Source: an uncultured delta proteobacterium (GTDB lineage Bacteria; Desulfobacterota; Binatia; Binatales; Binataceae). From it: DNA of 64,000 nucleotides. Position 1 is the stretch's first letter; each line of letters begins with the position of its first letter. Shown here piece by piece: positions 6,908 through 48,570 of this stretch. A model generated the notes under the pieces. The model ran no database searches, was not told the DNA's origin, and worked only from the letters and a program-made list of their open reading frames with translations. A program made the position numbers and the translations under genes. Location of the stretch: the NCBI GenBank assembly GCA_963808235.1, contig CAWEEQ010000004.1, forward strand, positions 64,001 through 128,000, in the 5' to 3' direction.

Positions 6908-6923
6908 AGCAAAACCGGGACCA
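6908..6923 (-). promoter_or_regulatory. sigma-54 promoter
   Basis: TGGTCC-CGGTT-TTGCT (GG-N10-GC). Confidence 0.6.
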
Positions 6924-7142
6924 CATAGGTGCGATTAACTTACTGACTTATAGTAACGACGATTTATCGACGCGGGTTAAACTCAGGCGGGTAATTGCTT
7001 CCCTATGGTTCCGCGAGTACCCACTAACCCCGATTCCTCGGCTGCGAATCGCTTACGAGATGCCGACGAAGCTCTCGTTCCGCGCTCAGCCAATCTTCCT
7101 GTATTGGCCGTGGCGACGACCTCGAGAATGAATTCGTGCATT

Positions 7143-7442
7143 TCAGTCATTACTCAGTGGAAATATCGATACTTCGTTATTGACTATCTGCACATCGGCC
7201 AGGCTGTCGGCCACAAATTCCGCGTGCTCAGCTGCGTCCCATGAGTCAGCTCGACCCGGAAGCGTAATCACTCCACGATCGGTGTGAACCTTAATCACGT
7301 TTTGGGCGGCTACCTGCCCTTGCTTCTCCCAAGTTTCGCCGTGGCGCCTGCTCGACGAATTAATCACGCAAAGAGCGGAGCCCACGATAATGAGACTGCC
7401 GAATATTCCGATTGCCAAGATCGCTGGATAGTTTCGCTTCAT
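7143..7442 (-). CDS. BON domain protein (short/partial domain)
   Basis: IKVHTDRGVITLPG..VQIVNNEV. Confidence 0.65.
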   Translation of the reverse strand: MKRNYPAILAIGIFGSLIIVGSALCVINSSSRRHGETWEKQGQVAAQNVIKVHTDRGVITLPGRADSWDAAEHAEFVADSLADVQIVNNEVSIFPLSND

Positions 7443-7494
7443 TTTTGCTCACTCCTGGTTAGGCGGTCGAAGGCCCAGGCACGAGGATAAGAGG

Positions 7495-7510
7495 AGCAAC
7501 GGCCATACCA
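7495..7510 (-). promoter_or_regulatory. sigma-54 promoter
   Basis: TGGTAT-GGCCG-TTGCT. Confidence 0.65.
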
Positions 7511-7679
7511 TCCGTGAAAGCGGTTTAATGGAGCATTTCTTTACAGCAGTTGTGAAATATTTTCCTGAATACCGACCGAAAGAACCCCATTTGGCAAGAA
7601 GTACCGAAGGCGCAGAAATGCCTCGATTCTGTGCGGAACGCGCGAAAATAGGCGCTTATTGCAGCATCGCGCTCCCGCG

Positions 7680-7695
7680 TGGCTCAAATGTTGCG
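7680..7695 (+). promoter_or_regulatory. sigma-54 promoter
   Basis: TGGCTC-AAATG-TTGCG. Confidence 0.6.
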
Positions 7696-7762
7696 TTTTC
7701 TCGAAGTACGCAGACTGCCGTTTCGATCTTCAAGCGGCGTCGATGAGAAGGAGGTAAATTCC

Positions 7763-7993
7763 ATGAAGAGCATCGTAGTATTCGGCGCAATCATCGCATT
7801 GCTCGGACTGATCGCGTTCGCGATACCTTCATTCAATACGCACAAAACCGAAGACGTTGCCAAGCTCGGCGATCTGAAGCTCGAAGCCAACACCGAGGAG
7901 ACCCACTTCATTCCTCCTCTACTTAGTGAAGGCGCGATATTACTCGGGGTACTGATTATCGGCGCAGGAGTACTGACTAATCGCCAGTCCTGA
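7763..7993 (+). CDS. Small 2-TM membrane protein (DUF3185-like)
   Basis: AAGGAGG RBS; TM-KLGDLKLEA-IPP-TM pattern. Confidence 0.75.
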   Translation: MKSIVVFGAIIALLGLIAFAIPSFNTHKTEDVAKLGDLKLEANTEETHFIPPLLSEGAILLGVLIIGAGVLTNRQS

Positions 7994-8062
7994 GCCAGCG
8001 AATACTCGGGAGGGTCTTCAAATAGCAAGTCGAAGCAGCGTTCGGAGGAAAGACTTACTAAT

Positions 8063-8215
8063 CTAGACCCTGCCCAGCAACGCCAGGACCAGCACTATAA
8101 CGAGAACCGTTCCAAGCGCTCCGCTCGGGAAATAACCCCAGTTAGCGCTGTAGGGCCACGCAGGCAACGCGCCGAGAAGCAGGACAACTAGTATGACCAA
8201 TAGTATCAAGTTCAT
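8063..8215 (-). CDS. DUF3309 family small membrane protein
   Basis: LLGALPAWPYSANWGYFPSGALG signature. Confidence 0.9.
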   Translation of the reverse strand: MNLILLVILVVLLLGALPAWPYSANWGYFPSGALGTVLVIVLVLALLGRV

Positions 8216-8367
8216 TTTGTTCTCCTGAAGTTTGGGACCGCACCCGGGTTTACATCGTGTGAGCAACCAGGTACCAAATCACGATCAGCGAGAGAGGAAC
8301 GCCGAGAATCCATGCTACTGCGTAACGCATTTGCTATCTCCTTAAAGTACTGAACTCAAAGAAGTAA

Positions 8368-8383
8368 AGCAGAAACCCTGCCA
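8368..8383 (-). promoter_or_regulatory. sigma-54 promoter (candidate)
   Basis: TGGCAG-GGTTT-CTGCT. Confidence 0.5.
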
Positions 8384-8754: not shown

Positions 8755-8838
8755 TCAGGCGTTCTTTCCGCAGCAGTCCTTGTACATCTTGCCGGAACCG
8801 CACGGACACGGGGCGGACGGATTAGGTGTGCTCGCCAT
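8755..8838 (-). CDS. 27-aa stand-alone SEC-C motif peptide MASTPNPSAPCPCGSGKMYKDCCGKNA
   Basis: Translated by hand (below ORF-track cutoff); CPCGSGKxYKxCC motif; AAGGAGGTG RBS; sigma-54 site upstream. Confidence 0.85.
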   Translation of the reverse strand: MASTPNPSAPCPCGSGKMYKDCCGKNA

Positions 8839-8881: not shown

Positions 8882-8897
8882 CGCAATCGGCATGCCA
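8882..8897 (-). promoter_or_regulatory. sigma-54 promoter
   Basis: TGGCAT-GCCGA-TTGCG. Confidence 0.7.
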
Positions 8898-9101: not shown

Positions 9102-9776
9102 CTAGCGTCGCGAGCGCGCCGCTACGCGAGCTTGTGCCTGACTGTCGTTCTGGAGCAGGTAGACTTTGGCCGCGGGCGCGGCGCGAATGACTTCGCTTGC
9201 GAAGTTCAAGCCGTTCGCACCCAGAATTTCTGAATCGCAAATGATATTGTCGAAGTCAGCTTCGGTCTCCAGGGCCTGGAGTCCCTCGGCCACCGACGCC
9301 GCGACGATCACGTCGCAACCGCTGCGCTCGAGCCCGCTTCTCATCGATGAGTCTGCAGTGACCTCGGTCTGTTCCTTTCCGATCAGCAGGACTCTCGTTC
9401 GCGGCCGGTCTTCACGAATCTGCGCGGTTGCGTTGGCCTCTGCGATTTCACGCTCGATGAGCGCGGTGCGGATCGCCCCGACGAGCTGTTCCGCGCGTAT
9501 GTAGTCCTGAAGATTCCGCACGCAGTCCACCGCCTTTTCGACCAGGTCCGCGAGACGGTCCATGTTTCCGGTCGACGGCGGCAACGGGTTCTGATGATGG
9601 CGCAGCAAGGCCACCCGCAGTCCGAGCGCGTTCAGAATGTCGTTCAGGTCGATAGCGGCCTGAAGGGCTACCAGACCGATCGGCGCGGGTATTCGCGCCG
9701 AGGTCTGGGAGCCCATAGCAGCAACTTCAGGATGTCGATCGGAAGCTACTTTTGCCGCATCGCCCAAAAGCATCAC
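9102..9776 (-). CDS. Degenerate HisKA-like helix plus atypical receiver domain protein
   Basis: AAIDLNDILNAL (cf. AHDLNNxL); C-terminal VIVAASVAEGL..FDNIICD..NGLNF. Confidence 0.65.
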   Translation of the reverse strand: MMLLGDAAKVASDRHPEVAAMGSQTSARIPAPIGLVALQAAIDLNDILNALGLRVALLRHHQNPLPPSTGNMDRLADLVEKAVDCVRNLQDYIRAEQLVGAIRTALIEREIAEANATAQIREDRPRTRVLLIGKEQTEVTADSSMRSGLERSGCDVIVAASVAEGLQALETEADFDNIICDSEILGANGLNFASEVIRAAPAAKVYLLQNDSQAQARVAARSRR

Positions 9777-9791: not shown

Positions 9792-10205
9792 TCAGTCCGT
9801 GCGCGAAGCGCTCACGACGGTCAAATTGTTCTTCACCCGCCGGACGCCTTCGGTATGCTCGGCAATGTCGCGCGCGCGGTCAGCCGCCTCGCGCGAGGAC
9901 ACTTGTCCCTGCAGCGTGACCACTCCGGCCCTTGTGTACACGTTAATCGAGGCCGCGCCGAGGGCCGGATCATTGTGCAGCGCCTTTTTGACCCTCATGT
10001 TGACGGTCGTGTCCTTCACCTCGATCTTGGTGCCATGATACACGTCCTCGGCGGCGGCGGCGGTATCGGAACCGGCCTGCTTGAGGTTAGATCCCGCCGC
10101 GTGCATCGCGTCGCCGGCGGACTCCTGCGCGAACGCCGGCATCGCCATCGCGAGGCCCAGCAATACGGCTGGTGCAACGAATTTCAACGAGTGGTTTCTT
10201 TTCAT
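9792..10205 (-). CDS. BON domain (OsmY-like) protein
   Basis: Signal peptide; VKKALHNDP..INVYTRAGVVTLQG..GVRRVKNNL. Confidence 0.9.
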   Translation of the reverse strand: MKRNHSLKFVAPAVLLGLAMAMPAFAQESAGDAMHAAGSNLKQAGSDTAAAAEDVYHGTKIEVKDTTVNMRVKKALHNDPALGAASINVYTRAGVVTLQGQVSSREAADRARDIAEHTEGVRRVKNNLTVVSASRTD

Positions 10206-10233: not shown

Positions 10234-10428
10234 TTATTCAACGCCTTGCGACTTGAACCATTTCTCGATCGCTTCGCGCTGGTCGCCGGAGCGCTCCTGG
10301 ATCTTTCCGACCAGCTTTTCCATGCTGCCCTGCGCCTGGCGAAGATCATCGTCGGTAATCTGTCCCCATTTGCGTTTGATTTCGCCAGTCAACTGCTTCA
10401 GTTTTCCCTTTGCCTGATCGGTGTTCAT
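10234..10428 (-). CDS. csbD: CsbD family general stress protein
   Basis: KGKLKQLTGEIKRKWGQITDDDL..GKIQERSG. Confidence 0.9.
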   Translation of the reverse strand: MNTDQAKGKLKQLTGEIKRKWGQITDDDLRQAQGSMEKLVGKIQERSGDQREAIEKWFKSQGVE

Positions 10429-10489: not shown

Positions 10490-10505
10490 AGCAATGGTGA
10501 GGCCA
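10490..10505 (-). promoter_or_regulatory. sigma-54 promoter
   Basis: TGGCCT-CACCA-TTGCT upstream of csbD. Confidence 0.7.
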
Positions 10506-10602
10506 GTAGAATAAAGCCCCGAATTACAAGGCTTTTCTTGCGGTACCGGTAGTAATTTCTTCACGCTTCAGGGCGAAAAACAGAACGGCGGGCGGAAGTT
10601 CC

Positions 10603-11430
10603 TCAGCGCATCGAGTTTGTGGAGGTCCCGGCGATTTTGGGCAGTGGATCGAGCAGGGTCGAAGCTTTGCTTGCGAGGCTGGTCGCGGCGACGTTGTCAC
10701 GATCGGCCAGCGCTTTCTTGGCATCCTGGAGGAGTCGTTGCGCGAGGACGTCGCGCGCGGTTTCGTCAGCGCTCAGGTCGTTGCGATCGATTCGCTTTTC
10801 GATCTTGTCGACCTCATCGATTAACTTTGCGGCGTTCGCAGGATCAGGTCCGCTCGAAGATCCTATCGCCGGAAGACTCGCAGTAGCTACGCTGGCGCTC
10901 TCCAAACCGGGCGTGCCTTTGGCGTGCGCCGCCGGAGTCGATCCGGAAGCGCCTGCTGCGAACGCTGCTCCTGGAGTTCCGGCCAAGGAAGCAACCGGGT
11001 TCGCTTCCAGACTGACGACATTTTTGCCGGCGCCCTCACCTTCGACTTGCGATGCTGCATTCGCGGCCTGGCGCGCTTGCTTTGAGGCTTGCAGCGCTTT
11101 TTCCGACGCCTGGGCCGCGCTCTCGGAAGCCTGCGATGCCTTCTCGACCGCGATATGCGCTTCGTTTGCGGATTTCTTGTGACCGCGCGCCTGTCCGGCC
11201 ACCGGCGTCGGTGTCGGCGACGATGTTGCGGACTCGGCTGGTGTAGCTACGGACGCCTCCGATCGAGGCGGCTCAGCCCTGGAGCCAAAGAAACGCCCAA
11301 CGCTCGAGGTTCCGCCCGCGCAACCGGAGAACAAAATCGGCTGCGCTGAAAGCAGACCAAACAGCAACCACAAGGCGAGCCGAGCAGCCTGCCTATGCGG
11401 CGCTGGAGACCGACGTTTTGGCGGGCGCAT
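10603..11430 (-). CDS. Hypothetical Ala-rich lipoprotein overlapping kinase 3' end
   Basis: Lipobox FSGC; helical C-terminal domain. Confidence 0.65.
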   Translation of the reverse strand: MRPPKRRSPAPHRQAARLALWLLFGLLSAQPILFSGCAGGTSSVGRFFGSRAEPPRSEASVATPAESATSSPTPTPVAGQARGHKKSANEAHIAVEKASQASESAAQASEKALQASKQARQAANAASQVEGEGAGKNVVSLEANPVASLAGTPGAAFAAGASGSTPAAHAKGTPGLESASVATASLPAIGSSSGPDPANAAKLIDEVDKIEKRIDRNDLSADETARDVLAQRLLQDAKKALADRDNVAATSLASKASTLLDPLPKIAGTSTNSMR

Positions 11431-13207
11431 TAGCAGCAATCGGAAAAGTGACCGTGCATACCGTACCCTGGCCGACTTGCGAGTCTATAGAAATCTTTCC
11501 GCCGTTCAACTCGATCGCGCGCATCGCAAACGGCAAGCCAAGACCGCTGCCGTTGCTCTTGGTCGTGTAATACAGATCGAAGATTCTATCCAATTGCTCT
11601 TTCGGAATTCCATGCCCCTGGTCGGCGATGCTTACCTCGACCGACGATCCGCCCGTCTTGCTCGACAACTTGATGGCGCCGCCATCGCGCATCGCCTGGT
11701 CGGCGTTGGTTATCACATTGGTCAGCGCCTCGTAAATCATGCCGCGGTCTGCGCGGATGGGCGGCATCGGCGAGTCCAGTTGATATTCGACTTTGATTCG
11801 ATCGCCGATCACATGAGAGCCGAGTTCCTTCAGAAGCTCATTCATGTCGAAATCAGTGACCTTCAAATCCTCGGGGCGCATAAATCGCAGCAAGGCTTCA
11901 ACCGCCTCGTCAAGACGGGTCACTTCGCGCCGCAACCTTTCGACATGCCTTGCGCCTAGCTCGCCTGCTTCACGGCTCAGGAGTTCGAGCCGCATGTTCA
12001 TTCCATGCAAAGGACTGCGCAGTTGATGAGCCAGGCCCGAAATCAGCGTGCCCAGCCGGGCCAGCCGGTTGGAAGCGTCGAGCGCGGTTTCGAGCTCGAT
12101 AACCGGCTGCAGATCGCGCAGAACGATCAGCAGGCCGGCCGGAATTCGTTCGTGGCCGAGGCGGAAAAACGAAACCAGAAAACTGCTGGAATCCCCAAGC
12201 GTCAGCGGGACATCATGAGCTTCGGTGCCCGCGACCGTTGACTGTACGAGCGCGAGGACCGGATGCGAACTGTCGAGAACCGCGGTGAGCGGGCCGCCTT
12301 CAAGCGTGTCTTTCCCCTTCTTCGGTGCAAGCAGTGCTTGCGCTATCTCGTTCACGAACAGCACAACTCCATTGGCATCGAGCAGCACGACGCCGTCCTG
12401 AATCGATCGAATCGCGTCGAAGAGGCCGGTCTGATCGTTGTCCAAGCGAGATCGATCGGCCCTGACCTGGCGCGACAATTCGTTGAATTTCTCCGCCAGG
12501 GTGCTTAGTTCGCCGCCGCCCGCGACTTTGACTTCGGCGGGATTCGCGCCGGCCTTGAGCTGGTCGAAGCCGCGAGCCAACACCGCGAACTGTTCGAGGA
12601 TTCGGTTGGCAATCAGCGACACCACCAGCAAGGCGCCGGCGATGACCAATCCCGCGGTGGTGACGATCACAATCAACAAGTGGCGAACCTTGTCGGCGAT
12701 CAGCGCCGTGGTCACGCCGATCGAAATGGTCGCGACAGGCCGGTTGTTGATTTCCACCCGGCGGCGCGCTTCGAACACCTTGGAGGTCATAAGGTTGGGC
12801 AGCGATGCGAACAGCATCCATCGTCCCGCATCCGCATCGAGTTCCGCGATGGACGCCATGTTGAGCGCCGGCCTTCCCTCACCTTCCCCGTGCGCCGCGA
12901 CGACGATGGTGCCGTCGGCTCCGACAATCGCCGCATTCACGACTCCGGGGCCGAAGGCGACAGTGGAATCGAGCACTTTCCTGACTGGTTCGCTATTCTT
13001 CAGCTTCTCGGTGACGTTGGCGCCGTTGCCTTGTTCCAGCGCGAGGCGCACCTGTTCGAAGATCTGCTCGATCATGAAGTCGGTGGACCGGGACATGTCC
13101 TCGATCATCGTGTCGATTCTGGAATCGAGCGAGATGAGGCTCAGCGCGATGATCGGAACGAGCATCAATGCGAGAGCGATGAGGGCCAGTCTTGCTCGCA
13201 GTTGCAT
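11393..13207 (-). CDS. Sensor histidine kinase (2TM, HAMP, PAS, HisKA, HATPase)
   Basis: LAHQLRSPL, NVITNA, DQGHG, GSGLGL. Confidence 0.93.
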   Translation of the reverse strand: MQLRARLALIALALMLVPIIALSLISLDSRIDTMIEDMSRSTDFMIEQIFEQVRLALEQGNGANVTEKLKNSEPVRKVLDSTVAFGPGVVNAAIVGADGTIVVAAHGEGEGRPALNMASIAELDADAGRWMLFASLPNLMTSKVFEARRRVEINNRPVATISIGVTTALIADKVRHLLIVIVTTAGLVIAGALLVVSLIANRILEQFAVLARGFDQLKAGANPAEVKVAGGGELSTLAEKFNELSRQVRADRSRLDNDQTGLFDAIRSIQDGVVLLDANGVVLFVNEIAQALLAPKKGKDTLEGGPLTAVLDSSHPVLALVQSTVAGTEAHDVPLTLGDSSSFLVSFFRLGHERIPAGLLIVLRDLQPVIELETALDASNRLARLGTLISGLAHQLRSPLHGMNMRLELLSREAGELGARHVERLRREVTRLDEAVEALLRFMRPEDLKVTDFDMNELLKELGSHVIGDRIKVEYQLDSPMPPIRADRGMIYEALTNVITNADQAMRDGGAIKLSSKTGGSSVEVSIADQGHGIPKEQLDRIFDLYYTTKSNGSGLGLPFAMRAIELNGGKISIDSQVGQGTVCTVTFPIAANAPAKTSVSSAA

Positions 13208-14251: not shown

Positions 14252-14476
14252 TTCGATTTTCCTTACATTGCTACGTATACGCATGAGATGCTGATCCGGA
14301 CAGCATCGGCGCGGATTTTGCCCGCCGGAAAGATTCCACCACGCGCTTGATAATTTGTCCGTGGAATCCGAAACACCTTGGTGCTTCGTCCGCACTTTAT
14401 TGGTTCAGATAAACTATGAGCGAATGGACTCTCAACGCGCAGTCGATCAAGGGCAAGATTCCCCAGGGGTACCGCC

Positions 14477-15497: not shown

Positions 15498-16859
15498 CTA
15501 ACGCTCCGGGCCGAACCGTTCCAACTTGTTGTACAAGGTCTTCGCGCTGACGCCGAGAATCTCCGCCGCGCGAGTTTTGTTCCCGCCGGTGAATTCGATG
15601 GTTCGCGAGATCATTTCCTTCTCGACATCCTCCAGCGACGATCCGATTGGGATCTTGATAAAGCTGCCGTCGTTGGTGCTCGCGGCGCGGAAGTCGTCGG
15701 GCAAATCCGACTTGCGGATCATCCGCCCATCGCAAACGATCAGCGCGCGCTCGAGAACGTTGCGGAGTTGGCGCACGTTTCCCGGCCACGGATGCGCCAT
15801 CAGCGCCTTCATGCATTCCTCGTCCACCCCGACCACATCTTTCTTGTTCTGCTCGGCGTAATGACCGACGAACATTTGAATGAGCTGCGGCATGTCGTCG
15901 GCGCGCTCGCGCAGCGGGGGAAGCTGGATCGTGAAAACATTTAATCGGTAATACAGATCGGAGCGGAGCTTGCCGTCGCGAACTGCCTGCTCCACGTCCC
16001 GATTCGAGGCCGCCAGCACGCGCACATCCAGCGGTATCTCGGCCGTGCCGCCGACCCGGCGCACGCGGCCTTCCTCGATCACGCGCAGCAGCTTGGCCTG
16101 CAACTCGACTTTCATCTCGGTAATCTCGTCGAGCAGCAAAGTGCCGCCGTTGGCAACTTCGAAGCATCCTTCCTTGCGCCGATCCGCTCCGGTAAACGAG
16201 CCGCGCTCGTGGCCGAACAGCTCGCTCTCCATCAGAGTCTCTGGAATCGCGGCGCAGTTCACCGGCACGTAGGCCGCATCGCGACGCGGCGATAGCTCGT
16301 GAATGGTGCGAGCCACCAGCTCCTTGCCGGTGCCGCTATCGCCGGTTATCACCACTGACGCTGACGACTGTGCGAGCCGTTCGATGGCCGAGATCACGCG
16401 GCGCATCGCGAGCGAGCGCCCGAACAGCGGCCCGAGTTCACCGACGTTGGCCAGTCTTCGCCGCAGGGTCGTATTTTCCTCGCGAATGGAAATATTGTCG
16501 GCGATGTTTCGCAACACTCGCTCCAAATGCGCAGGGTCGACGGGCTTGCGCAGATAGTCGATGGCGCCGAGCTTGAGCGCCTCGACGGCGTCGGGAATCT
16601 CGCCTTGTCCGGAGATCATTATGGCCGGGAGGCGGATTCCGAGCTCCTGGATATCGCGCAGCAGCTCGAGGCCGTTTTTGCGCGGCATCCTCAAGTCCGA
16701 GACAAGGATGTGGGGATTGAAGCTGCTGATCAGCTCCAGCGCCTTGATGCCATCTTCCGCTATTTCGATGCGGAAGCCCCAGGCCGCCAGGGACTCGCCC
16801 CATTCCTCGTGGGTGTTTACGTCGTCCTCAGCAATCAGAACTCGAATTTCGTTGGTCAT
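15498..16859 (-). CDS. sigma-54-dependent response regulator (NtrC/AtoC family)
   Basis: REC; GDSGTGKE, GSFTGA, LLLDEI, WPGNVRQL; Fis HTH. Confidence 0.96.
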   Translation of the reverse strand: MTNEIRVLIAEDDVNTHEEWGESLAAWGFRIEIAEDGIKALELISSFNPHILVSDLRMPRKNGLELLRDIQELGIRLPAIMISGQGEIPDAVEALKLGAIDYLRKPVDPAHLERVLRNIADNISIREENTTLRRRLANVGELGPLFGRSLAMRRVISAIERLAQSSASVVITGDSGTGKELVARTIHELSPRRDAAYVPVNCAAIPETLMESELFGHERGSFTGADRRKEGCFEVANGGTLLLDEITEMKVELQAKLLRVIEEGRVRRVGGTAEIPLDVRVLAASNRDVEQAVRDGKLRSDLYYRLNVFTIQLPPLRERADDMPQLIQMFVGHYAEQNKKDVVGVDEECMKALMAHPWPGNVRQLRNVLERALIVCDGRMIRKSDLPDDFRAASTNDGSFIKIPIGSSLEDVEKEMISRTIEFTGGNKTRAAEILGVSAKTLYNKLERFGPER

Positions 16860-17105
16860 AGGTTTGAGCGGGAGAAGTTCGTCTCGGATGATTTCAATAG
16901 TCGAAGTCGTTTCGTGACCGAGCGCATCGGCGCCGCATGTGCACCAGATACAGCAATACTAGGACCGAATGCCGGTGGTGCTCAAGGACATGTCAAAGAG
17001 AGCTAAAGCATATTGAAGCTATTGCTTTCTGCAAGGTCGATCGGCAATTTTTACCGCATTCGCCTCTACGTTATCGAACTATCAAACATTTGCAGCGCCG
17101 TACAG

Positions 17106-17121
17106 TGGCAGATGACTTGCT
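17106..17121 (+). promoter_or_regulatory. sigma-54 promoter
   Basis: TGGCAG-ATGAC-TTGCT. Confidence 0.72.
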
Positions 17122-17435: not shown

Positions 17436-17441
17436 CAGGCG

Positions 17442-18463: not shown

Positions 18464-18479
18464 TGGCATAGTAGTTGCT
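18464..18479 (+). promoter_or_regulatory. sigma-54 promoter
   Basis: TGGCAT-AGTAG-TTGCT. Confidence 0.78.
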
Positions 18480-19349: not shown

Positions 19350-19365
19350 TGGCACGCGCGTTGCT
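19350..19365 (+). promoter_or_regulatory. sigma-54 promoter
   Basis: TGGCAC-GCGCG-TTGCT, perfect consensus. Confidence 0.85.
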
Positions 19366-31122: not shown

Positions 31123-31138
31123 TGGCAGGGGACTTGCA
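31123..31138 (+). promoter_or_regulatory. sigma-54 promoter
   Basis: TGGCAG-GGGAC-TTGCA. Confidence 0.72.
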
Positions 31139-32644: not shown

Positions 32645-32660
32645 AGCAACAGCTATGCCA
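32645..32660 (-). promoter_or_regulatory. sigma-54 promoter
   Basis: TGGCAT-AGCTG-TTGCT. Confidence 0.78.
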
Positions 32661-34389: not shown

Positions 34390-34405
34390 TGGCACTTCGC
34401 TTGCT
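34390..34405 (+). promoter_or_regulatory. sigma-54 promoter
   Basis: TGGCAC-TTCGC-TTGCT, perfect consensus. Confidence 0.85.
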
Positions 34406-40352: not shown

Positions 40353-40653
40353 CGCTGTAACCTCCAGGAATTCGGGGGGCCATATTACACCGGCGTTTTG
40401 CCGCGCAATAGTACCATCAACCGCCCATGGAGGGGTTATTGACGATATCAACCACGAGGCAATCGTCATGCCATCGGCGAAGATTTGGCCTCCATATCGT
40501 GGCCTAGCGGGGTCGACGATAACGCACGTCGCGATAGATTGGTCGCTCGACAAGCCTGAATAATTTTCACTATGGGCAATCGCGATCGTCGCGATTTGTA
40601 GCTCGCGGAACGAGATTCTCTAAACTTTTCCGACAGATTTTTGAGCAAATCGT

Positions 40654-40669
40654 TGGCAGCGGTCTTGCT
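40654..40669 (+). promoter_or_regulatory. sigma-54 promoter
   Basis: TGGCAG-CGGTC-TTGCT. Confidence 0.72.
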
Positions 40670-40750: not shown

Positions 40751-41101
40751 ATGAACGTAGAAATAGCCAACGAACTGCCGAACATATTTCAGGGGTCCGA
40801 TATCCTGCCGGTCCAATACAATGACCTGTTCCGTCGGGGCACTCAGACGGCGGACGCCGAGCGGCGCCTTCTCTTCGCCCTTCTCGAGGACGGCATCCGC
40901 TGCTACTTGAGGTATCGCGATGCCGAGCGGAACTCGCCCCAGCGGCTCGAATTTCTCGAAGCTTCGAACTGGATCAATTCCAACGACGACGATGGACCGT
41001 TCGCCTTCGTAAACGTTTGCGAGGCGCTCGGTATCGACCCGAGCCATCTGCGCTACGGCGTGCATAAGCACGTTGGACAGCTCGAGGAGATCCGCATCTA
41101 A
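40751..41101 (+). CDS. Conserved-looking hypothetical protein
   Basis: AERRLLFALLEDGIRCY..W..FAFVNVCEALGIDP. Confidence 0.8.
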   Translation: MNVEIANELPNIFQGSDILPVQYNDLFRRGTQTADAERRLLFALLEDGIRCYLRYRDAERNSPQRLEFLEASNWINSNDDDGPFAFVNVCEALGIDPSHLRYGVHKHVGQLEEIRI

Positions 41102-43654: not shown

Positions 43655-45236
43655 GAGCGAACCACCACGGCCTTCCGTGCCCGAGTCGCGGACGGTGGAA
43701 AAAAAACGCACGCGGCTCTCGCTGGTTTGGTTCATCCCGATCTTGGCGGCGGTGGTCGGCGCATGGGTGGCGGTGACGAGATATTTGAGTGAAGGGCCCC
43801 GGATAACAATCGTAATGAAGTCGGCCGAAGGACTGGAGGCGGGTAAGACCAAGATCCACTACAACGGCGTCGACGTCGGCACGATCACCAAGATTCGGCT
43901 CTCGGACGATCATCAGCGCGCCATCGCAACCGCCGAGATGGCGCCCCGGACGGAAGAATTTCTGGTCACCGACACGAAGTTCTGGGTGGTGCGGCCGCGC
44001 ATCTCGGGCGCCAACGTCTCGGGGCTGGGCACTTTAATTTCCGGGTCCTACATAGGCATGGAGATCGGCACGTCCAAAGAGAGCAAGAGCGACTTCGTGG
44101 CGCTCGAAACGCCGCCAGTGATAAGCGGTGACGTTCCCGGCCGCTTTTTCATCCTCAAGACGCCTGACCTGGGTTCGCTGGATACCGGCACTCCGGTGTA
44201 CTTCCGGCGCCTGCAAGTCGGCCAGGTCGCATCGTACAAGCTCGACGATGATGGCAGGAATCTGACCGTCAAGGTGTTCGTGCAGACGCCCTACGATCAG
44301 TACGTGAACCCGGACACGCGCTTTTGGCACGCGAGCGGAATCGATCTGTCGCTCTCGGCGAGCGGGCTCAGCGTGCAAACCCAGTCGGTGCTGTCGATTC
44401 TGATCGGGGGCATCGCATTCGAGACCGCGCCGACGGTTATAGTTTCGCCGCCGGCCGATGAGAACACCGTCTTCACCCTCTATAGCAGCCGATCGGAGGC
44501 CTTTAACCCACCACCGCGCAATCCGCAGACTTACCAACTCGTCTTCAAGGACTCGGTGCGCGGGCTGGTGGCGGGAGCTCCGGTCGAGTTTCGCGGCATT
44601 CCGATAGGCGAGGTTTCCGATATCACCGCGCAAATCGATCTCAAGACTTTCGATTTCTCGGTGCCAGTGACTATCCGCCTCGATCCGCGCAGACTCGGGG
44701 TCAAGATCTTCGATCTGGGCGCGGGCATGAACCTCGAGACGATGCGTCGGAGGTTGATCGACAGCCTGATATCGCACGGAGTCCGTGCGCAGCTCCGGAC
44801 CGGGAATCTGCTGACCGGGTCCGCATACGTTGCGCTCGACTTTTTCCCCAACGCTCCCAAGGCGGCTGTTGATTGGTCACAAAACCCGGTCCAGTTGCCA
44901 ACTACTCCCGGACAATTCGAGGCGACGGAGGCCACCGTCGAGAGCATCATCAACAAGGTCGACCAGATGCCCATGAAAGAGATCGGCGACAACTTGAGCA
45001 AGGCGCTCGTTGACCTGGATGCTACCCTGGTCAGCGCGCGCGGCACGTTGGTAAGTGCGCAAGGCACCCTCGATAACACCGGCAACCTCACCGGGCCCAA
45101 TTCCGTGCAGGTCCAGCAATTGGACCAGACGCTGCGTGAGATCGCCCGGGCGGCCCGATCGGTGCGAGTGCTCGCAGACTATCTCGAGGCTCATCCCGAA
45201 GCGCTCATTCGCGGCAAGACCGGGGAGGCGAAGTGA
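43647..45236 (+). CDS. pqiB: PqiB MCE-domain protein
   Basis: Three MCE domains; AEGLEAGKT, FWVVRPRI, PEALIRG. Confidence 0.95.
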   Translation: MPESEPPRPSVPESRTVEKKRTRLSLVWFIPILAAVVGAWVAVTRYLSEGPRITIVMKSAEGLEAGKTKIHYNGVDVGTITKIRLSDDHQRAIATAEMAPRTEEFLVTDTKFWVVRPRISGANVSGLGTLISGSYIGMEIGTSKESKSDFVALETPPVISGDVPGRFFILKTPDLGSLDTGTPVYFRRLQVGQVASYKLDDDGRNLTVKVFVQTPYDQYVNPDTRFWHASGIDLSLSASGLSVQTQSVLSILIGGIAFETAPTVIVSPPADENTVFTLYSSRSEAFNPPPRNPQTYQLVFKDSVRGLVAGAPVEFRGIPIGEVSDITAQIDLKTFDFSVPVTIRLDPRRLGVKIFDLGAGMNLETMRRRLIDSLISHGVRAQLRTGNLLTGSAYVALDFFPNAPKAAVDWSQNPVQLPTTPGQFEATEATVESIINKVDQMPMKEIGDNLSKALVDLDATLVSARGTLVSAQGTLDNTGNLTGPNSVQVQQLDQTLREIARAARSVRVLADYLEAHPEALIRGKTGEAK

Positions 45237-45826
45237 TGACGGCGCGTATCACACAACTGATCTCGATCGCGATGCTCGCGGCGATCGTGGCCGGATGCAG
45301 CACGGCGCCGGCGCGATTTTACGCGCTCGACTCCACCGCGAGCGCCGACGGCGCGGCGCCCGCCCACGCCTCGGTCATGGTCGGCCCGGTCACCGTTCCT
45401 GCCGCGGTCGACCGGCCGGAGTTCGTCGTCCAGGTCGCGCCGAACCGCGTCGACGTCGATGAGTTCAACCGCTGGGTCGCGCCACTGGGCGACGCTATCG
45501 CGCGCGCCGTCGCCGGCGACCTGGTGGCGATGCTCGGGACGCCGGACGTGGCGACCGAGACGCTTGCCAACTTCAATCCTGACTACCGAGTCACGATCGA
45601 TGTCCAGCGCTTCGACTCGATTCAGGGCCAATCGGCAGTGCTCGAAGCGGTATGGACCGTGCGCAAGACTGTCGGCACAGAATCCCGCTCCGGCCGCACC
45701 GTAGCGCACGAACCGGTGCAAGGACAGAGTTTCGAGGCGCTCGCCGCCGCGCACAGCCGCGCGCTCGCGAAGATGAGCGGCGACATCGCCGCCGCAATCC
45801 GCGCCGAAGCAGAGCAGAAGCAATAA
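45233..45826 (+). CDS. pqiC: PqiC lipoprotein
   Basis: VAGC lipobox; VGPVTVP..DRP, RWVAPL. Confidence 0.92.
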   Translation: MMTARITQLISIAMLAAIVAGCSTAPARFYALDSTASADGAAPAHASVMVGPVTVPAAVDRPEFVVQVAPNRVDVDEFNRWVAPLGDAIARAVAGDLVAMLGTPDVATETLANFNPDYRVTIDVQRFDSIQGQSAVLEAVWTVRKTVGTESRSGRTVAHEPVQGQSFEALAAAHSRALAKMSGDIAAAIRAEAEQKQ

Positions 45827-45887: not shown

Positions 45888-45906
45888 GGTGCCGAGGGGC
45901 GGGGCT
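45888..45906 (-). repeat. Degenerate tRNA-Leu 3'-end fragment (att remnant)
   Basis: GGTGCCGAGGGGCGGGGCT vs tRNA GGTGCCGAGGG-CGGGACT. Confidence 0.55.
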
Positions 45907-46642
45907 AATCAGGGTCAATTGTGCGATGGAAATCGGCGTGCCAGGTTCTGACGGCTGGCAGCCCGTCCACTTCTAATTCCTGGCGCGCCTGTACCGACAA
46001 ATGGTCCAAATCTCTCTTTTGCACCAGTTCCTCTTCAACCAATGCCTGATGTCTTGGAACAGGAAGTAACCACCTCCAACCGCCGATGATCTTGAGCGGC
46101 ACAAAAGTGCGCGCGTAGATCTGGGTAGGAGTAATCGCATAGACCCTGTTGAAAATGTCGTGATGATCCACTTGGACAAAGGCGAAACTGAAGCCTAGAT
46201 GCGTGGCCATATCTTTGATCAAGGATGGCGCCGCGAATCCCGCCTCGAGCTCGGCAACCGGAACGTCGATATGATTTCGCCGGTAACAGAATACGATTCG
46301 ACCTGGCCTACTGATGGTCACGTCTTGGAAATTTCCATCCGCCGAATCGTATCGCTCGACCGTCCCTTCCCAGCATCCAATGAATGGTGACGGTATCAGT
46401 GGGTTGGCCAGAGGCGGTGGGGGCGGTGGCAGTGCCCCGTCTACCAGGGGCGGCAACTCGAGAATGCGATTATTCTGCGACGGCGTGACCGCGAGAGCTT
46501 GATTGCCTTGCGGCGATTGGCTAGCGGGGAACTGGCCGCGCGGCGGCGGTGCGAACTCCTGCTGCGGATCGGCGACCGCGTGGGTTGGCGCTATGATCGC
46601 CAGGGACGCCAACAACGAGATGACCAGTAGGCCGTTCTTCAT
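45905..46642 (-). CDS. Hypothetical exported protein
   Basis: Signal peptide, Pro-rich linker, FIGCWEG beta-domain. Confidence 0.65.
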   Translation of the reverse strand: MKNGLLVISLLASLAIIAPTHAVADPQQEFAPPPRGQFPASQSPQGNQALAVTPSQNNRILELPPLVDGALPPPPPPLANPLIPSPFIGCWEGTVERYDSADGNFQDVTISRPGRIVFCYRRNHIDVPVAELEAGFAAPSLIKDMATHLGFSFAFVQVDHHDIFNRVYAITPTQIYARTFVPLKIIGGWRWLLPVPRHQALVEEELVQKRDLDHLSVQARQELEVDGLPAVRTWHADFHRTIDPD

Positions 46643-46950
46643 TGAGCTTGCAAAGGCCGCGGAGTCGGCTGCGCCGACGCACTCGGCGCATTCAGTGCCT
46701 GGACGCAACGGGATTTGCCGAGGTTTGCCTCCAGGAACCGGTGCGTGGCCGTCCACGAAGAAAAGAGTACGTCATCTCCGTCTTGGTGCTCCGCACCACT
46801 CACAAGATGCAACTGGACGCTGCCGCCCGATTGCCGCAACGCTTATTCCATTTCTTCAGCTTGCTCGGGCGGTGTGATCGTGTCGGCATCTCCCTGGATC
46901 AAAAGCACCGGCGCTTTTATCCGGCTGGCCACGGTAACATTCCGGATGTT
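46639..46950 (-). pseudogene. C-terminal fragment of S9/alpha-beta hydrolase with internal stop
   Basis: IKAPVLLIQGDAD..EEME*ALR..GAEH in one frame; TAA at 46843-46845; N-terminus missing. Confidence 0.75.
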
Positions 46951-47049
46951 ACGCCGAAGCCGAGTAGAAGCAATAGCGATTGCGCTAACTAATCGTTTAC
47001 AGTATTTGCTACGCACGATACCCTTGGCGAAACGCACAGCCGAGTTCCA

Positions 47050-47955
47050 ATGACTAGCAGAGTAGCGAAAGTCTCACGCCCGGTTGCGCTAGTATGCCTG
47101 GTCCTGGCGTCGGGATGTTGTACGGTTCCGGCCGGCCAGCTCAAAGCTCTTGCCGAATCAACTTCACAATTGAACCAGGTTAGTCAGCGGGCATACGACC
47201 AGAGCGCGCAGCTCGAACGCGCGTGGATCGTATTGACCGTCAAATCAGGTCAGTTGACCGTCAACAGCTTTGATCTCGAAACCGCGTTTCAATCTCAGGC
47301 AGAGGGCAAGTCGCTGGGTGACAAAGACCTGGGTGCGCGGATGCAAGCCAACGAAGCCGTGCTCACGGTAATTAACAATTACCTGTCGGCGCTGTCTGCA
47401 TTTGCGAACAAGGATTTCCAGTCGGACCTAGATGCGCAGTCAACCAAGCTCGCGGCCAGTGTGAAGAGTCTAGACAGTCTCTCGCAGCCGTGGGCCAAGC
47501 AGGCTGCAGCCAGCTCAGGCTACCTTGCAACCGCAATCGACGGGCTCGGGCATGCCTACATCGAATACCAACGCGTCGAAACTCTCCAACGAACGATGAC
47601 TGCGGTGCAGAAGCCACTGGAGGATCTCGCCGGGTTCGTAATCACAAACGATCAGACCGCCCAGCTGGTGCTCCAACAGATGGAAGGGTACTACATCACC
47701 GACGCAAATGTGCTTCAGCCGCAGCATCATGGCGCCGAGGAGCTTGCTTTTCACGCATACGTCGGGGACATCGTAGGCCAATTTACTGACGCTCGCAAAA
47801 CATTGACCGGAATGGACGCTGCGATGCGAAAATTGCCGGCGGCACACGACGAACTTGAGAAATCGATGTGCTCCGATAAACCGAATATTGAGAGTCTGAA
47901 GGGGCTGATCGCCGAGACTCAGCGTCTGAGTAAGTTTTATAAGTCGGTAAAGTAA
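47050..47955 (+). CDS. Hypothetical all-helical lipoprotein
   Basis: Lipobox ASGC; long amphipathic helices. Confidence 0.75.
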   Translation: MTSRVAKVSRPVALVCLVLASGCCTVPAGQLKALAESTSQLNQVSQRAYDQSAQLERAWIVLTVKSGQLTVNSFDLETAFQSQAEGKSLGDKDLGARMQANEAVLTVINNYLSALSAFANKDFQSDLDAQSTKLAASVKSLDSLSQPWAKQAAASSGYLATAIDGLGHAYIEYQRVETLQRTMTAVQKPLEDLAGFVITNDQTAQLVLQQMEGYYITDANVLQPQHHGAEELAFHAYVGDIVGQFTDARKTLTGMDAAMRKLPAAHDELEKSMCSDKPNIESLKGLIAETQRLSKFYKSVK

Positions 47956-47979
47956 TCCAGCGCAAAGTGATCTAATAAA

Positions 47980-48297
47980 ATGGCAACAAATTCAGATCTA
48001 CAGGACAAGATCGACCAGCTCTCCAAGTGGCTGGTCGCAAACAAAAACCGCATCGGCCCGGACGACAAGGACCAAGCCTTCGACGCGCTGGTGACATTAC
48101 AGAAGGAGAGCCTGGCGGATATTCTTGCGACGTCTCCGCTACCCGACATCACCGCGGCGGTCAAAGCGATGAACGTCGCAATTGACGGAATCAACAAAGA
48201 AACGAAAAAGCTGGCAACCGTCGCGCAGGTAGTAGGTTGGATCGCCGCCGCGGCATCATTGATCGAAAAAGCGCTTGAGAGTGGCGTCGCGTTCTGA
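47980..48297 (+). CDS. Hypothetical small helical protein
   Basis: Operonic; amphipathic C-terminal helix. Confidence 0.7.
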   Translation: MATNSDLQDKIDQLSKWLVANKNRIGPDDKDQAFDALVTLQKESLADILATSPLPDITAAVKAMNVAIDGINKETKKLATVAQVVGWIAAAASLIEKALESGVAF

Positions 48298-48359
48298 TCG
48301 CTCGACCCCCCGAACGAAGTCGTAAAGACCGAAAATAGCACGTTACTGGACCAGAATTC

Positions 48360-48434
48360 TGGTGCCGAGAGTGGGAACGTGCCGAGGGCGGGACTTGAAC
48401 CCGCAGGTGGTTGGCCACGGAGGACTTTGAGTCC
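48360..48434 (-). repeat. tRNA-Leu 3' duplications (att remnants)
   Basis: 48379-48434 matches 54178-54233 at 53/56; 48360-48376 matches the tRNA 3' 17 nt at 15/17. Confidence 0.9.
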
Positions 48435-48554
48435 GAGTGAGCAATGCAACTATTTGCCTTTCCTCGACTGTTCCAATTTGAAGCACGACTGGCGATGACC
48501 TGGTCGCGCCGGTTGCCTTTGCGCGGCTTGGGCAAGCCAATCAGCACAAGCATC

Positions 48555-48570
48555 TGGCACCTGCCTTGCT
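48555..48570 (+). promoter_or_regulatory. sigma-54 promoter
   Basis: TGGCAC-CTGCC-TTGCT, perfect consensus. Confidence 0.75.

What the first reader, a model, noticed from the sequence alone, without database searches (positions are those of the whole stretch)
6908..48570. Apparent sigma-54-driven general stress regulon
Seen: 14 correctly oriented GG-N10-GC sites (6908, 7495, 7680, 8368, 8882, 10490, 17106, 18464, 19350, 31123, 32645, 34390, 40654, 48555). They precede BON proteins, csbD, DUF3309, DUF1328, the DUF883-like operon, metallothionein-hemerythrin, DUF4142, the SEC-C peptide and two unknown paralogs, and an NtrC-type activator plus kinase sits in the cluster. Known: these families are usually under sigmaS, sigmaB or EcfG. 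Inference: here the general-stress programme is wired to sigma-54 through this two-component system. Best candidate for an undescribed regulatory system in the window.
Basis: partly seen in the sequence, partly recalled or inferred. Interest (0 to 1): 0.8.

Follow-up and report, generated by a model that had tools for sequence, protein, structure and literature searches.

The report
Sigma-54 promoters driving stress-protein genes
An uncultured soil bacterium carries about fifteen sigma-54-type promoters in front of small stress-protection genes, packed around one two-component activator, which suggests its stress or dormancy programme is switched on by sigma-54 instead of the usual stress sigma factors.

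Summary
All 14 sites exist, lie between genes, point at a start codon 34-164 nt downstream and precede the named genes. I add a 15th site, before Ku-LigD.

In the whole genome, TGGCA-N6-TTGCT with at most one mismatch gives 66 intergenic, correctly oriented sites. Wrong-spacer controls give 5-11. This 42-kb stretch is the densest in the genome: 11 sites against 0.6 expected.

rpoN is intact and single-copy. The window holds 1 of the genome's 19 enhancer-binding proteins: REC, AAA+ with a GSFTGA loop, and a Fis-type HTH.

In relatives of the same genus, the -24/-12 boxes are conserved beside orthologues of this activator. Genomes lacking the activator also lack the sigma-54-linked csbD and DUF1328. 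csbD and DUF1328 carry such sites in several families of the class.

A shared AT-rich upstream element is only partly supported. No RpoS- or SigB-type sigma factor was found.

The sigma-54 wiring is well supported. That this two-component system is the master switch, and that the response is "general", are inferences. No transcript data were available. I rate it a new variant of a known kind.

The parts
6908..6923 (-). sigma-54-type -24/-12 site TGGTCCCGGTTTTGCT. ATG of the lipoprotein-like gene 6454-6825 lies 82 nt downstream, followed by BON 5999-6376.
   Evidence: Two mismatches to the consensus. A comparable site precedes the orthologue in L043.
7495..7510 (-). sigma-54-type site TGGTATGGCCGTTGCT, 52 nt before the BON gene 7143-7442.
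   Evidence: The TGGTAT...TTGCT form is conserved in 5 of 5 orthologous promoters.
7680..7695 (+). sigma-54-type site TGGCTCAAATGTTGCG, 67 nt before the 76-aa membrane protein gene 7763-7993. Divergent from the 7495 promoter.
   Evidence: Two mismatches; the weakest site.
8368..8383 (-). sigma-54-type site, 37 nt before the 26-aa peptide gene 8250-8330, followed by DUF3309 8063-8215.
8882..8897 (-). sigma-54-type site, 43 nt before the 27-aa SEC-C-motif peptide gene 8755-8838.
   Evidence: Sites also precede the orthologues in L034 and L041.
10490..10505 (-). sigma-54-type site TGGCCTCACCATTGCT, 61 nt before CsbD 10234-10428, then BON 9792-10205, then REC-domain protein 9102-9716.
   Evidence: The TGGCC...TTGCT form recurs in 8 of 9 relatives' promoters aligned.
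10550..10565 (-). Conserved AT-rich upstream element CGTGAAGAAATTACTA, 60 nt upstream of the -24 TGG of the csbD promoter. Candidate activator-binding site.
   Evidence: Footprinting: present in 8 of 9 relatives' csbD-type promoters. Score 18.4 in the profile scan.
7551..7566 (.). AT-rich element TGTGAAATATTTTCCT, shared by the divergent promoters at 7495 and 7680.
   Evidence: Conserved in 5 of 5 orthologous BON promoters. Score 17.4.
11393..13165 (-). Sensor histidine kinase: unknown N-terminal domain, transmembrane segment, weak HAMP match (below Pfam's threshold), HisKA, HATPase.
   Evidence: Pfam; translation. Lies directly downstream of the activator gene in 8 of 12 relatives' loci.
10603..11202 (-). 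Unknown Ala/Ser-rich 199-aa protein that follows the kinase gene in relatives.
15498..16859 (-). NtrC-type enhancer-binding protein: REC (Asp55), AAA+ sigma-54 interaction domain with a GSFTGA loop, HTH_8.
   Evidence: Pfam; translation. The only one of the genome's 19 activators in the window. Below every NCBIfam equivalog cut-off.
17106..17121 (+). sigma-54-type site TGGCAGATGACTTGCT, 65 nt before a four-gene operon of small membrane or coiled-coil proteins, 17187-18359.
   Evidence: Conserved in L034, L041 and L043.
17043..17056 (.). Element GGCAATTTTTACCG, 63 nt upstream of the 17106 site (GTAATTnTTAC in relatives).
   Evidence: 3 of 3 relatives
18464..18479 (+). sigma-54-type site, 34 nt before DUF1328 18514-18675.
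   Evidence: Conserved in L033 and L043. 10 of 26 DUF1328 loci across the class carry such a site.
19350..19365 (+). sigma-54-type site TGGCACGCGCGTTGCT, 75 nt before BON 19441-19842, then YflT 19879-20394.
   Evidence: Conserved in L034, L041 and L043.
31123..31138 (+). sigma-54-type site, 65 nt before the Cys-rich 53-aa protein gene 31204-31365, then hemerythrin 31462-32052.
   Evidence: A homologue of the Cys-rich protein follows a sigma-54-type site in L210, from another family.
32645..32660 (-). sigma-54-type site, 55 nt before the unknown ORF 32113-32589.
34390..34405 (+). sigma-54-type site, 51 nt before DUF4142 34457-35056, then M23 peptidase 35079-35672.
   Evidence: Conserved in L041.
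40458..40473 (-). Additional sigma-54-type site TGGCATGACGATTGCC, 105 nt before Ku 39462-40352, then LigD 36367-39072.
   Evidence: In L042 a Ku-LigD operon lies beside a copy of the activator gene, with a two-mismatch site.
40654..40669 (+). sigma-54-type site, 81 nt before the unknown 116-aa protein gene 40751-41101.
   Evidence: Conserved in L034 and L038.
40555..40570 (.). AT-rich element CCTGAATAATTTTCAC, midway between the divergent promoters at 40458 and 40654.
   Evidence: Profile built from relatives only: score 13.7, null p about 0.001.
48555..48570 (+). sigma-54-type site TGGCACCTGCCTTGCT, 164 nt before the MetA-type outer-membrane protein gene 48735-49607, then PAS hybrid kinase 49611-53936.
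   Evidence: An identical 16-mer occurs in G016; its neighbours there were not examined.

Best explanation
The window holds the core of a sigma-54 regulon of stress-protection genes.

Shown from sequence:
- Fifteen -24/-12 promoters sit in front of operons for small periplasmic, membrane and cytoplasmic proteins of families typical of general-stress regulons: four BON proteins, CsbD, DUF1328, DUF3309, YflT, hemerythrin, DUF4142 and tail-anchored coiled-coil proteins. One promoter precedes the end-joining repair pair Ku-LigD.
- The genome has an intact rpoN.
- The promoters cluster around one NtrC-type response regulator and a histidine kinase.

Inferred mechanism:
1. The kinase senses a still unknown signal, probably from the envelope or from water or osmotic status.
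2. It phosphorylates Asp55 of the activator.
3. The activator oligomerises on AT-rich sites (roughly G-W-A-R-N3-T-T-W-C) that begin 54-129 bp upstream of the -24 box.
4. Through its GSFTGA loop and ATP hydrolysis it opens the closed sigma-54 holoenzyme complexes at many promoters at once.

Sigma-54 promoters are silent without their activator. This wiring would therefore keep the protective genes tightly off during growth and switch them on together. In this lineage it would do the job that RpoS, SigB or EcfG do elsewhere.
For: 1. Motif statistics. 66 intergenic, oriented sites have the right spacer, against 5-11 with wrong spacers. Coding-region counts equal the controls. The local density is 11 per 42 kb against 0.6 expected, the highest in the genome.

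2. Machinery. RpoN has its AID, CBD and DBD domains. The activator has an Asp55 receiver, Walker A/B motifs, a GSFTGA loop and HTH_8. A table of Desulfovibrio vulgaris activators lists a GSFTGA regulator (PMC4641369, passages seen).

3. Classical sigma-54 targets elsewhere in the genome carry the same motif: amtB, Flp pilin/Tad, prkA and kinase-activator operons.

4. Conservation. In the 12 loci of 20 kb fetched around activator orthologues from 9 genomes of the genus, the -24/-12 boxes are kept while spacers and flanks vary. Promoter-specific deviations are also kept: TGGCC at csbD and TGGTA at BON.

5. Link to the activator.
- The gene sets beside the activator copies are always members of this set.
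- Exact-motif counts average 19.4 in the 17 genus genomes with the orthologue and 9.8 in the 6 without. The reversed-pattern controls average 5.9 and 7.3.
- In five genomes lacking the orthologue, DUF1328 was found in 0 of 5, and 0 of the 8 csbD paralogue loci have a site.

6. Upstream element. It is conserved at csbD (8 of 9), BON (5 of 5) and the 17106-type operon (3 of 3). A profile built from relatives only hits four further window promoter regions at null p < 0.01.

7. Breadth. Across the class, 9 of 30 csbD loci and 10 of 26 DUF1328 loci carry a site with at most one mismatch within 250 nt upstream, most of them 56-101 nt upstream. The antisense control for DUF1328 is 0 of 26; none was run for csbD. 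One genome of another family (L210) shows a similar island with an activator whose best match in this genome is the window's activator.

8. Sigma factors. Only RpoD and an RpoH-like factor have region 3. The other 14 sigma-70-family hits lack it and look ECF-type.
Against: - There is no transcript, start-site or protein evidence; no RNA run was listed.
- The upstream element is clear at only about a third to a half of the promoters. The strict pattern hits 5 of 16 cluster promoters. The sites at 8368, 8882, 19350, 32645, 34390 and 48555 score at background.
- That strict pattern was written after I had seen the sequences.
- The element starts only 54-99 bp upstream of the -24 box at most promoters. 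That is close for an enhancer. It could instead be an IHF-like bending site or the site of another factor; its GTGA half resembles a CRP half-site (recalled), and a Crp-family gene lies at 13490-14251.
- The genome has 18 other activators.
- A conserved promoter (TGGCA[G/A]CGCTCTTGCT) also occurs in genomes without the orthologue, so other activators serve part of the stress-like set.
- The genus genomes are kin. The co-occurrence may reflect a single gain or loss, and the genomes without the orthologue are mostly smaller.
- The genome is 93% complete, so a missed sigma factor cannot be excluded. One of the 14 ECF-type sigmas could be a stress sigma.
Confidence: 0.62

Rival explanations
1. The sites are real sigma-54 promoters, but several different activators serve them, each answering its own signal (for example nitrogen or carbon starvation through an NtrC-like protein). 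The local two-component system controls only its nearest neighbours. There is then no single master switch, and the clustering reflects an island of co-selected genes.
For: - The genome encodes 19 activators.
- The shared upstream element is missing or at background at about half of the cluster promoters.
- A conserved stress-like promoter persists in genomes lacking the orthologue.
- Similar small-protein promoters are scattered across the genome far from this activator.
Against: - No other activator gene lies within the window.
- In relatives, duplicated copies of this activator each sit inside subsets of the same gene set.
- The sigma-54-linked csbD and DUF1328 are missing where the orthologue is missing.
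- The element recurs at non-orthologous promoters: Ku/unknown, 6908, 18464 and 31123.
Confidence: 0.22
2. The regulon is a specific envelope, osmotic or desiccation response, comparable to ZraSR, CpxAR or the phage-shock system. It is not a general stress response and does not replace a stress sigma factor. General stress control may lie with one of the ECF-type sigma factors.
For: - Most products are periplasmic or membrane proteins: BON, DUF1328, DUF3309, DUF4142, a lipoprotein and an M23 peptidase.
- The kinase is membrane-bound with an extracytoplasmic N-terminal part.
- Isoamylase and nucleotidyl-transferase genes elsewhere carry the same promoter and element, which points to storage or compatible-solute sugars.
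- 14 ECF-type sigma factors are present.
Against: - The set also contains cytoplasmic members that are not envelope functions: CsbD, YflT, hemerythrin and Ku-LigD.
- The family list matches multi-stress regulons of model bacteria (recalled knowledge).
- No RpoS- or SigB-type sigma factor was found.
Confidence: 0.3
3. The motif matches are not promoters. They are chance matches, a dispersed repeat, or sites of an unrelated DNA-binding protein.
For: No expression data exist. Two sites (6908, 7680) have two mismatches. One good match (27704) has no gene downstream.
Against: - The motif depends on the spacer, is enriched between genes and is oriented towards genes.
- Only the GG and GC blocks are conserved in orthologous alignments, with variable spacers, so it is not a repeat.
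- The distance to start codons is consistent.
- The same motif precedes classical sigma-54 targets.
- rpoN is intact.
Confidence: 0.03

Closest known systems
NtrC-family two-component sigma-54 regulons (NtrBC, ZraSR, AtoSC; PspF for stress)
   Same: A histidine kinase plus a REC-AAA+-HTH_8 activator. -24/-12 promoters with upstream activator sites. AtoC, ZraR and NtrC are among the best NCBIfam matches.
   Different: The activator is below every equivalog cut-off, so it is not an orthologue of any named one. The target set is about 15 local promoters for general-stress-type small proteins and Ku-LigD. It is not nitrogen, zinc, acetoacetate or phage-shock genes.
DVU3305-DVU3304-DVU3303 'three-component system for general stress responses' of Desulfovibrio vulgaris (PMC3333781, passages seen; PMC4641369, passages seen)
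   Same: A sigma-54-dependent response regulator proposed to control stress-induced membrane and hypothetical proteins next to its own operon.
   Different: That system targets a few operons (UspA-type proteins, kdp, a transporter) and is paired with a Lon-protease response regulator. Here none of the 51 window proteins scanned has a Lon or UspA domain. The targets are CsbD, BON, DUF1328 and similar families, and there are many more promoters.
RpoS, SigB and EcfG general stress regulons (recalled: E. coli osmY, yjbJ, ytjA, elaB; B. subtilis csbD, yflT; Sinorhizobium ku genes under RpoE2)
   Same: The gene-family content overlaps strongly: BON/OsmY, CsbD/YjbJ, DUF1328/YtjA, YflT and Ku-LigD.
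   Different: Those regulons depend on a dedicated sigma-70-family factor controlled by proteolysis or partner switching. Here the promoters are -24/-12 type, and no RpoS- or SigB-type factor was found. Control would be by ATP-dependent activation from an enhancer.
Rrp2-RpoN-RpoS cascade of Borrelia burgdorferi (recalled)
   Same: A two-component enhancer-binding protein and sigma-54 sit at the top of a stress or adaptation programme.
   Different: In Borrelia, sigma-54 drives one promoter (rpoS) and RpoS does the rest. Here sigma-54-type promoters sit directly on each effector operon.

Membership tests
sigma-54 (-24/-12) promoter class | GG and GC doublets exactly 10 nt apart within TGGCAC-N5-TTGCW (consensus recalled) | tested here: met
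   All 15 sites have GG-N10-GC. 13 of 15 have at most one mismatch to TGGCA-N6-TTGCT.
sigma-54 (-24/-12) promoter class | Strict spacer dependence and enrichment upstream of genes in the right orientation | tested here: met
   66 oriented intergenic sites with the N6 spacer against 5-11 with N4, N5, N7 or N8.
sigma-54 (-24/-12) promoter class | The host encodes RpoN and enhancer-binding proteins | tested here: met
   One rpoN with AID, CBD and DBD domains. 19 activators.
sigma-54 (-24/-12) promoter class | Transcription starts about 11-12 nt downstream of the GC and depends on RpoN | not testable with these tools
   No RNA run was listed.
NtrC-type (group I) bacterial enhancer-binding protein | Receiver domain with a phospho-acceptor Asp, AAA+ sigma-54 interaction domain with a GAFTGA loop, C-terminal Fis-type HTH | tested here: met
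   PF00072, PF00158 and PF02954. Asp55, Walker A GDSGTGKE and loop GSFTGA, a natural variant (variant listed in PMC4641369).
Named activator orthologues (AtoC, ZraR, NtrC, PspF, PEP-CTERM regulator) | Score above the NCBIfam equivalog cut-off | tested here: not met
   The best match, AtoC, scores 428 bits against a cut-off of 714. All others are also below their cut-offs.
Classical general stress response (RpoS, SigB or EcfG type) | A dedicated sigma-70-family stress sigma factor | tested here: not met
   Region 3 is found only in RpoD and an RpoH-like factor. RpoS and SigB models score far below their cut-offs. 14 ECF-type sigmas were not classified further. The genome is 93% complete.
Classical general stress response (RpoS, SigB or EcfG type) | A regulon of small protective proteins (OsmY/BON, CsbD, YtjA/DUF1328, YflT and others) | tested here: met
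   Pfam.
Classical general stress response (RpoS, SigB or EcfG type) | Induction by many unrelated stresses | not testable with these tools
   No expression data.
DUF883 / ElaB-YqjD family (for 17187-17435) | Match to Pfam PF05957 | tested here: not met
   No Pfam family even at E <= 5. Only the coiled N-terminus plus C-terminal membrane anchor resemble it.
DVU3305-type three-component stress system | A partner response regulator with a Lon protease domain; UspA-type targets | tested here: not met
   None of the 51 window proteins has a Lon or Usp domain.

The most novel reading that the evidence does not exclude
[quoted passage not shown] It acts directly at each effector promoter and replaces the RpoS, SigB or EcfG solution. 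The whole module (activator, kinase and sigma-54-driven effector genes) behaves as a unit that is gained, lost and duplicated between species.
Probability: 0.4. Interest if true: 0.75.

Novelty: new variant of a known kind. Interest (0 to 1): 0.62.

Why it matters
How bacteria outside the well-studied phyla organise their general stress response is largely unknown. All three textbook solutions use a sigma-70-family factor. A regulon in which sigma-54 and an ATP-driven activator directly switch on CsbD, BON/OsmY, DUF1328/YtjA, YflT and Ku-LigD would be a fourth design.

Sigma-54 promoters have essentially no basal activity. That suits genes meant only for non-growing or drying cells in soil.

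The finding also assigns a regulatory context to several families of unknown function: DUF3309, DUF4142, DUF1328, the SEC-C peptide and the two unknown paralogues. It offers a compact, testable promoter set and a candidate enhancer sequence.

Tried and rejected
- **Dyad search.** A search for 4+4 dyads shared by at least 6 of the 15 upstream regions found none.
- **First Gibbs sampler.** The run timed out. The second run gave only an AT-rich GAAA...TTTC-like motif that was not convincing on its own. It gained weight only because it coincides with the blocks found by footprinting.
- **Immediate upstream region of the activator.** The 600 nt upstream of the activator orthologues showed a site in only 4 of the 16 orthologous loci with sequence there (L018 gave none). 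I therefore fetched larger regions.
- **Activator homologues from other phyla.** The 80 loci from the search for related loci mostly show no such gene neighbourhood. Only a csbD with a site beside a 59%-identical homologue stood out. The link is therefore not a property of all similar activators.
- **csbD outside the class.** It is too rare to judge: 6 loci, of which 1 has a site.
- **RNA evidence.** No RNA holder was listed.
- **Literature.** Searches for sigma-54 or RpoN together with CsbD, BON, DUF1328, OsmY or general stress turned up no paper describing such a regulon in the listings I read. The nearest were the Desulfovibrio DVU3305 papers. Subscription journals and supplements were not searched.
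- **Organism name.** Not established. The nearest public records are labelled 'uncultured delta proteobacterium' metagenome-assembled genomes.

Full report
**What was checked.** The window is G000:C4:64001-128000 of a 4.59-Mb, 60% GC genome in four contigs. The nearest named public records are metagenome-assembled genomes labelled 'uncultured delta proteobacterium'. I did not establish the organism's name.

I searched the window for TGGCAC-N5-TTGC, a consensus recalled from the sigma-54 literature.
- All 14 sites exist.
- Each has GG-N10-GC and lies between genes.
- Each points at a start codon with a ribosome-binding site 34-164 nt downstream.
- Twelve of the 14 have at most one mismatch to TGGCA-N6-TTGCT. 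Sites 6908 and 7680 have two.
- A fifteenth site (40458-40473, minus strand) precedes Ku and LigD.

**The genes.**
- BON domains at 5999-6376, 7143-7442, 9792-10205 and 19441-19842.
- CsbD at 10234-10428, DUF3309 at 8063-8215 and a 27-aa SEC-C peptide at 8755-8838.
- DUF1328 at 18514-18675 and YflT at 19879-20394.
- Hemerythrin at 31462-32052, behind a Cys-rich 53-aa protein.
- DUF4142 at 34457-35056.
- Ku at 39462-40352 and LigD at 36367-39072.

The two 'unknown paralogues' are weakly similar (E = 9e-5). The four-gene operon at 17187-18359 encodes small coiled-coil or membrane-anchored proteins. Pfam does not assign them to DUF883, even at E <= 5.

The regulator at 15498-16859 has a receiver domain, the sigma-54 interaction domain and HTH_8. 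It carries Asp55, Walker motifs and a GSFTGA loop. It is below the cut-off of every named NCBIfam equivalog. The kinase at 11393-13165 has a weak HAMP match (below Pfam's threshold), HisKA and HATPase domains behind an unknown N-terminal part.

**More than chance.** I called genes with a simple codon-usage caller of my own. It gives 85% coding density and misses very small genes. Results:
- Exact TGGCA-N6-TTGC occurs 49 times in the genome. 33 are intergenic, 27 of those oriented to a gene start within 300 nt, and 10 are in this window. Spacers N4, N5, N7 and N8 give 17-45 hits, of which 0-4 are oriented.
- Allowing one mismatch to TGGCA-N6-TTGCT gives 171 hits, 86 intergenic and 66 oriented. 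Control spacers give 113-144 hits, 19-22 intergenic and 5-11 oriented. Counts inside coding DNA equal the controls, so the excess lies entirely between genes.
- Twelve of the 66 lie in the window, which is 1.4% of the genome. Two more good sites (8882, 31123) precede small genes that my caller missed.
- The densest 42 kb in the genome is this one: 11 sites against 0.6 expected.

**The machinery and the rest of the sigma-54 set.** The genome has one rpoN with all three domains and 19 full activators, only one of them in the window.

I ran Pfam on the first gene behind 52 sites outside the window. It shows the classical targets: an ammonium transporter, Flp pilin and Tad genes, PrkA, and kinase-activator operons. 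It also shows more stress-type small proteins: hemerythrin, OmpA-like, DUF4168, DUF6496, a transglycosylase-associated protein, several unknowns of 57-131 aa, and a divergent isoamylase / nucleotidyl-transferase pair. Sigma-54 is therefore used conventionally as well, and the stress-like set extends beyond the window.

**Conservation.** Orthologues of the activator (at least 79% identity) occur in 16 of the 22 published genus genomes searched. In other families of the class the best matches are 40-46% identical. Two further genomes in that search are unpublished and are not used here.

I fetched twelve 20-kb loci around orthologues from nine genus genomes.
- The kinase gene directly follows the activator gene in 8 of the 12 loci.
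- Sites with at most one mismatch precede the orthologues of csbD-BON, BON-lipoprotein-BON, the 17106-type operon, DUF1328, BON-YflT, the SEC-C peptide, DUF4142 and the 116-aa unknown.
- Some genomes have two or three copies of the activator, each embedded in a different subset of these genes. One copy lies beside Ku-LigD with a two-mismatch site.
- In alignments, the conserved columns are the GG and GC blocks, while spacers and flanks vary. Promoter-specific deviations are kept: TGGCC at csbD and TGGTA at BON. This excludes a dispersed repeat.
- In the window, a Crp-family gene and an unknown gene on the other strand separate the activator from the kinase. Relatives do not show this arrangement.

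**Link between activator and regulon.**
- The exact 16-mer pattern occurs on average 19.4 times in the 17 genus genomes with the orthologue (reversed-pattern control 5.9). It occurs 9.8 times in the six without (control 7.3).
- In five genomes lacking the orthologue, DUF1328 was found in 0 of 5.
- Four of those five genomes have csbD copies. They are of the lower-scoring type, and 0 of their 8 loci has a site. The second csbD of this genome, far from the cluster, has none either.

These genomes are kin and mostly smaller, so this is one or a few evolutionary events, not independent trials.

**A candidate enhancer.** Footprinting shows one conserved non-coding block upstream of each of three promoter families, starting 56-64 nt upstream of the TGG:
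- GTGAAGAAATTAC at csbD (8 of 9 relatives' promoters).
- GTGWAGTATTTTC on the other strand at BON (5 of 5).
- GTAATTnTTAC at the 17106-type operon (3 of 3).

A 16-nt profile built only from the relatives' csbD and BON blocks was scanned over -130 to -25 of 88 candidate promoters in this genome, with a null from 2,500 random intergenic windows. Besides the two orthologous regions, it scores at null p < 0.01 on:
- the shared Ku/116-aa region (13.7), 6908, 18464 and 31123 in the window;
- three regions elsewhere, including the isoamylase / nucleotidyl-transferase pair (17.4).

A strict pattern, G-W-A-R-N3-T-T-W-C, written after I had seen the data, hits 5 of 16 cluster promoters, 6 of 72 other sites and 1.9% of random intergenic windows. 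In relatives, 8 non-training promoters (counting a divergent pair once per promoter) exceed the null's 95th percentile.

The element is thus real and enriched but not universal. Six window promoters score at background. It could also be a bending-protein site or the site of another factor.

**Breadth.** In 61 genomes drawn across the class:
- 9 of 30 csbD loci (8 of 29 without this genome), in families f1, f3, f7, f10 and f11, have a site with at most one mismatch within 250 nt upstream. Eight of the nine lie 67-86 nt upstream and one at -195.
- 10 of 26 DUF1328 loci (families f1, f7, f9, f10, f11) have a site 56-101 nt upstream. None of the 26 has one on the antisense control strand. No antisense control was run for csbD.
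- About 0.005 sites per locus are expected by chance.

A locus from another family (L210) has seven sites in 20 kb, with a homologue of the Cys-rich protein, csbD, BON, DUF1328, a kinase and an activator. That activator's best match in this genome is the window's activator, at 328 bits against 286 for the next. Outside the class, csbD is too rare to judge.

**Sigma factors.** Sigma-70 region 3 is found only in RpoD and in a factor that passes the sigma-32 subfamily model. That factor scores far below the RpoS and SigB cut-offs. The other 14 region-2 hits lack region 3 and look ECF-type. The genome is 93% complete.

**Literature.** Five searches returned no paper, in the listings and abstracts I read, that describes sigma-54 control of CsbD, BON, DUF1328 and similar families.

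The closest precedent is the DVU3305 system of Desulfovibrio vulgaris. It is described as a three-component system for general stress responses, with UspA-type targets and a Lon-domain partner (PMC3333781, passages; PMC4641369, passages and table text). Francke et al. 2011 (PMC3162934, passages) mention the general stress response only for SigB and RpoS. Supplements were not read.

Statements about E. coli, B. subtilis, Sinorhizobium and Borrelia regulons in this report are recalled, not checked here.

**Verdict.** The sigma-54 nature of the promoters is well supported by sequence statistics, conservation and the presence of the machinery, although no transcript data exist. That the local kinase-activator pair drives most of them is the best reading, at about 0.6. 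It rests on synteny, co-loss and a partly shared upstream element. That this amounts to the lineage's general stress response is plausible but untested. I rate it a new variant of a known kind, a sigma-54 and enhancer-binding-protein regulon with unusual content and scale, of moderate to high interest.

Noticed in passing
window 13490-15460: A Crp-family regulator gene (13490-14251) and an unknown 327-aa gene (14477-15460) lie on the opposite strand between the kinase and the activator. In 8 of the 12 relatives' loci the activator and kinase genes are adjacent. This looks like an insertion or rearrangement.
   Followed up: partly
window 26984-30223: A lower-GC stretch (0.54) with few convincing genes. 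It holds an AlpA-like HTH_17 ORF (27393-27563), a DUF3037 protein (28333-29553) and a good sigma-54-like match at 27704 (minus strand) with no gene behind it. It may be a remnant of a mobile element splitting the cluster.
   Followed up: no
G000:C4:913256-916850 (outside the window): A divergent isoamylase and nucleotidyl-transferase gene pair has two sigma-54-type sites and the best non-window match to the upstream element (17.4). An isoamylase also borders the cluster in the window (3856-5991) and follows csbD-BON in L208. This hints at storage or compatible-solute sugar metabolism in the same programme.
   Followed up: partly
L033/L034 (G008), L040/L041 (G020), L038/L042 (G004): Some genus relatives carry two or three copies of the activator, 84-88% identical to the window's. 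Only one copy has the kinase beside it. Each sits in a different subset of the regulon genes.
   Followed up: partly
window 10490-10505 and 7495-7510, with orthologous sites in L032-L043: Deviations from the consensus in the -24 box are promoter-specific and conserved: TGGCC at csbD in 8 relatives, TGGTA at BON in 5. They may be tuned promoter strengths rather than decay.
   Followed up: no
G000 C2:65357 and C4:2382610; several genus genomes: The 16-mer TGGCAGCGCTCTTGCT, or its A variant, recurs before DUF4168 and a transglycosylase-associated protein. It is also found in genus genomes that lack the activator orthologue. That promoter is probably served by another activator.
   Followed up: no
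window 42339-45826: A PqiA-PqiA-MlaD-lipoprotein (paraquat-inducible-type) operon lies inside the cluster. No sigma-54-type site precedes it.
   Followed up: no
window 48555-53936: One sigma-54-type promoter appears to drive an outer-membrane MetA-type protein and a 1441-aa kinase with seven PAS domains and two receiver domains. This suggests a regulatory cascade below the sigma-54 layer.
   Followed up: no
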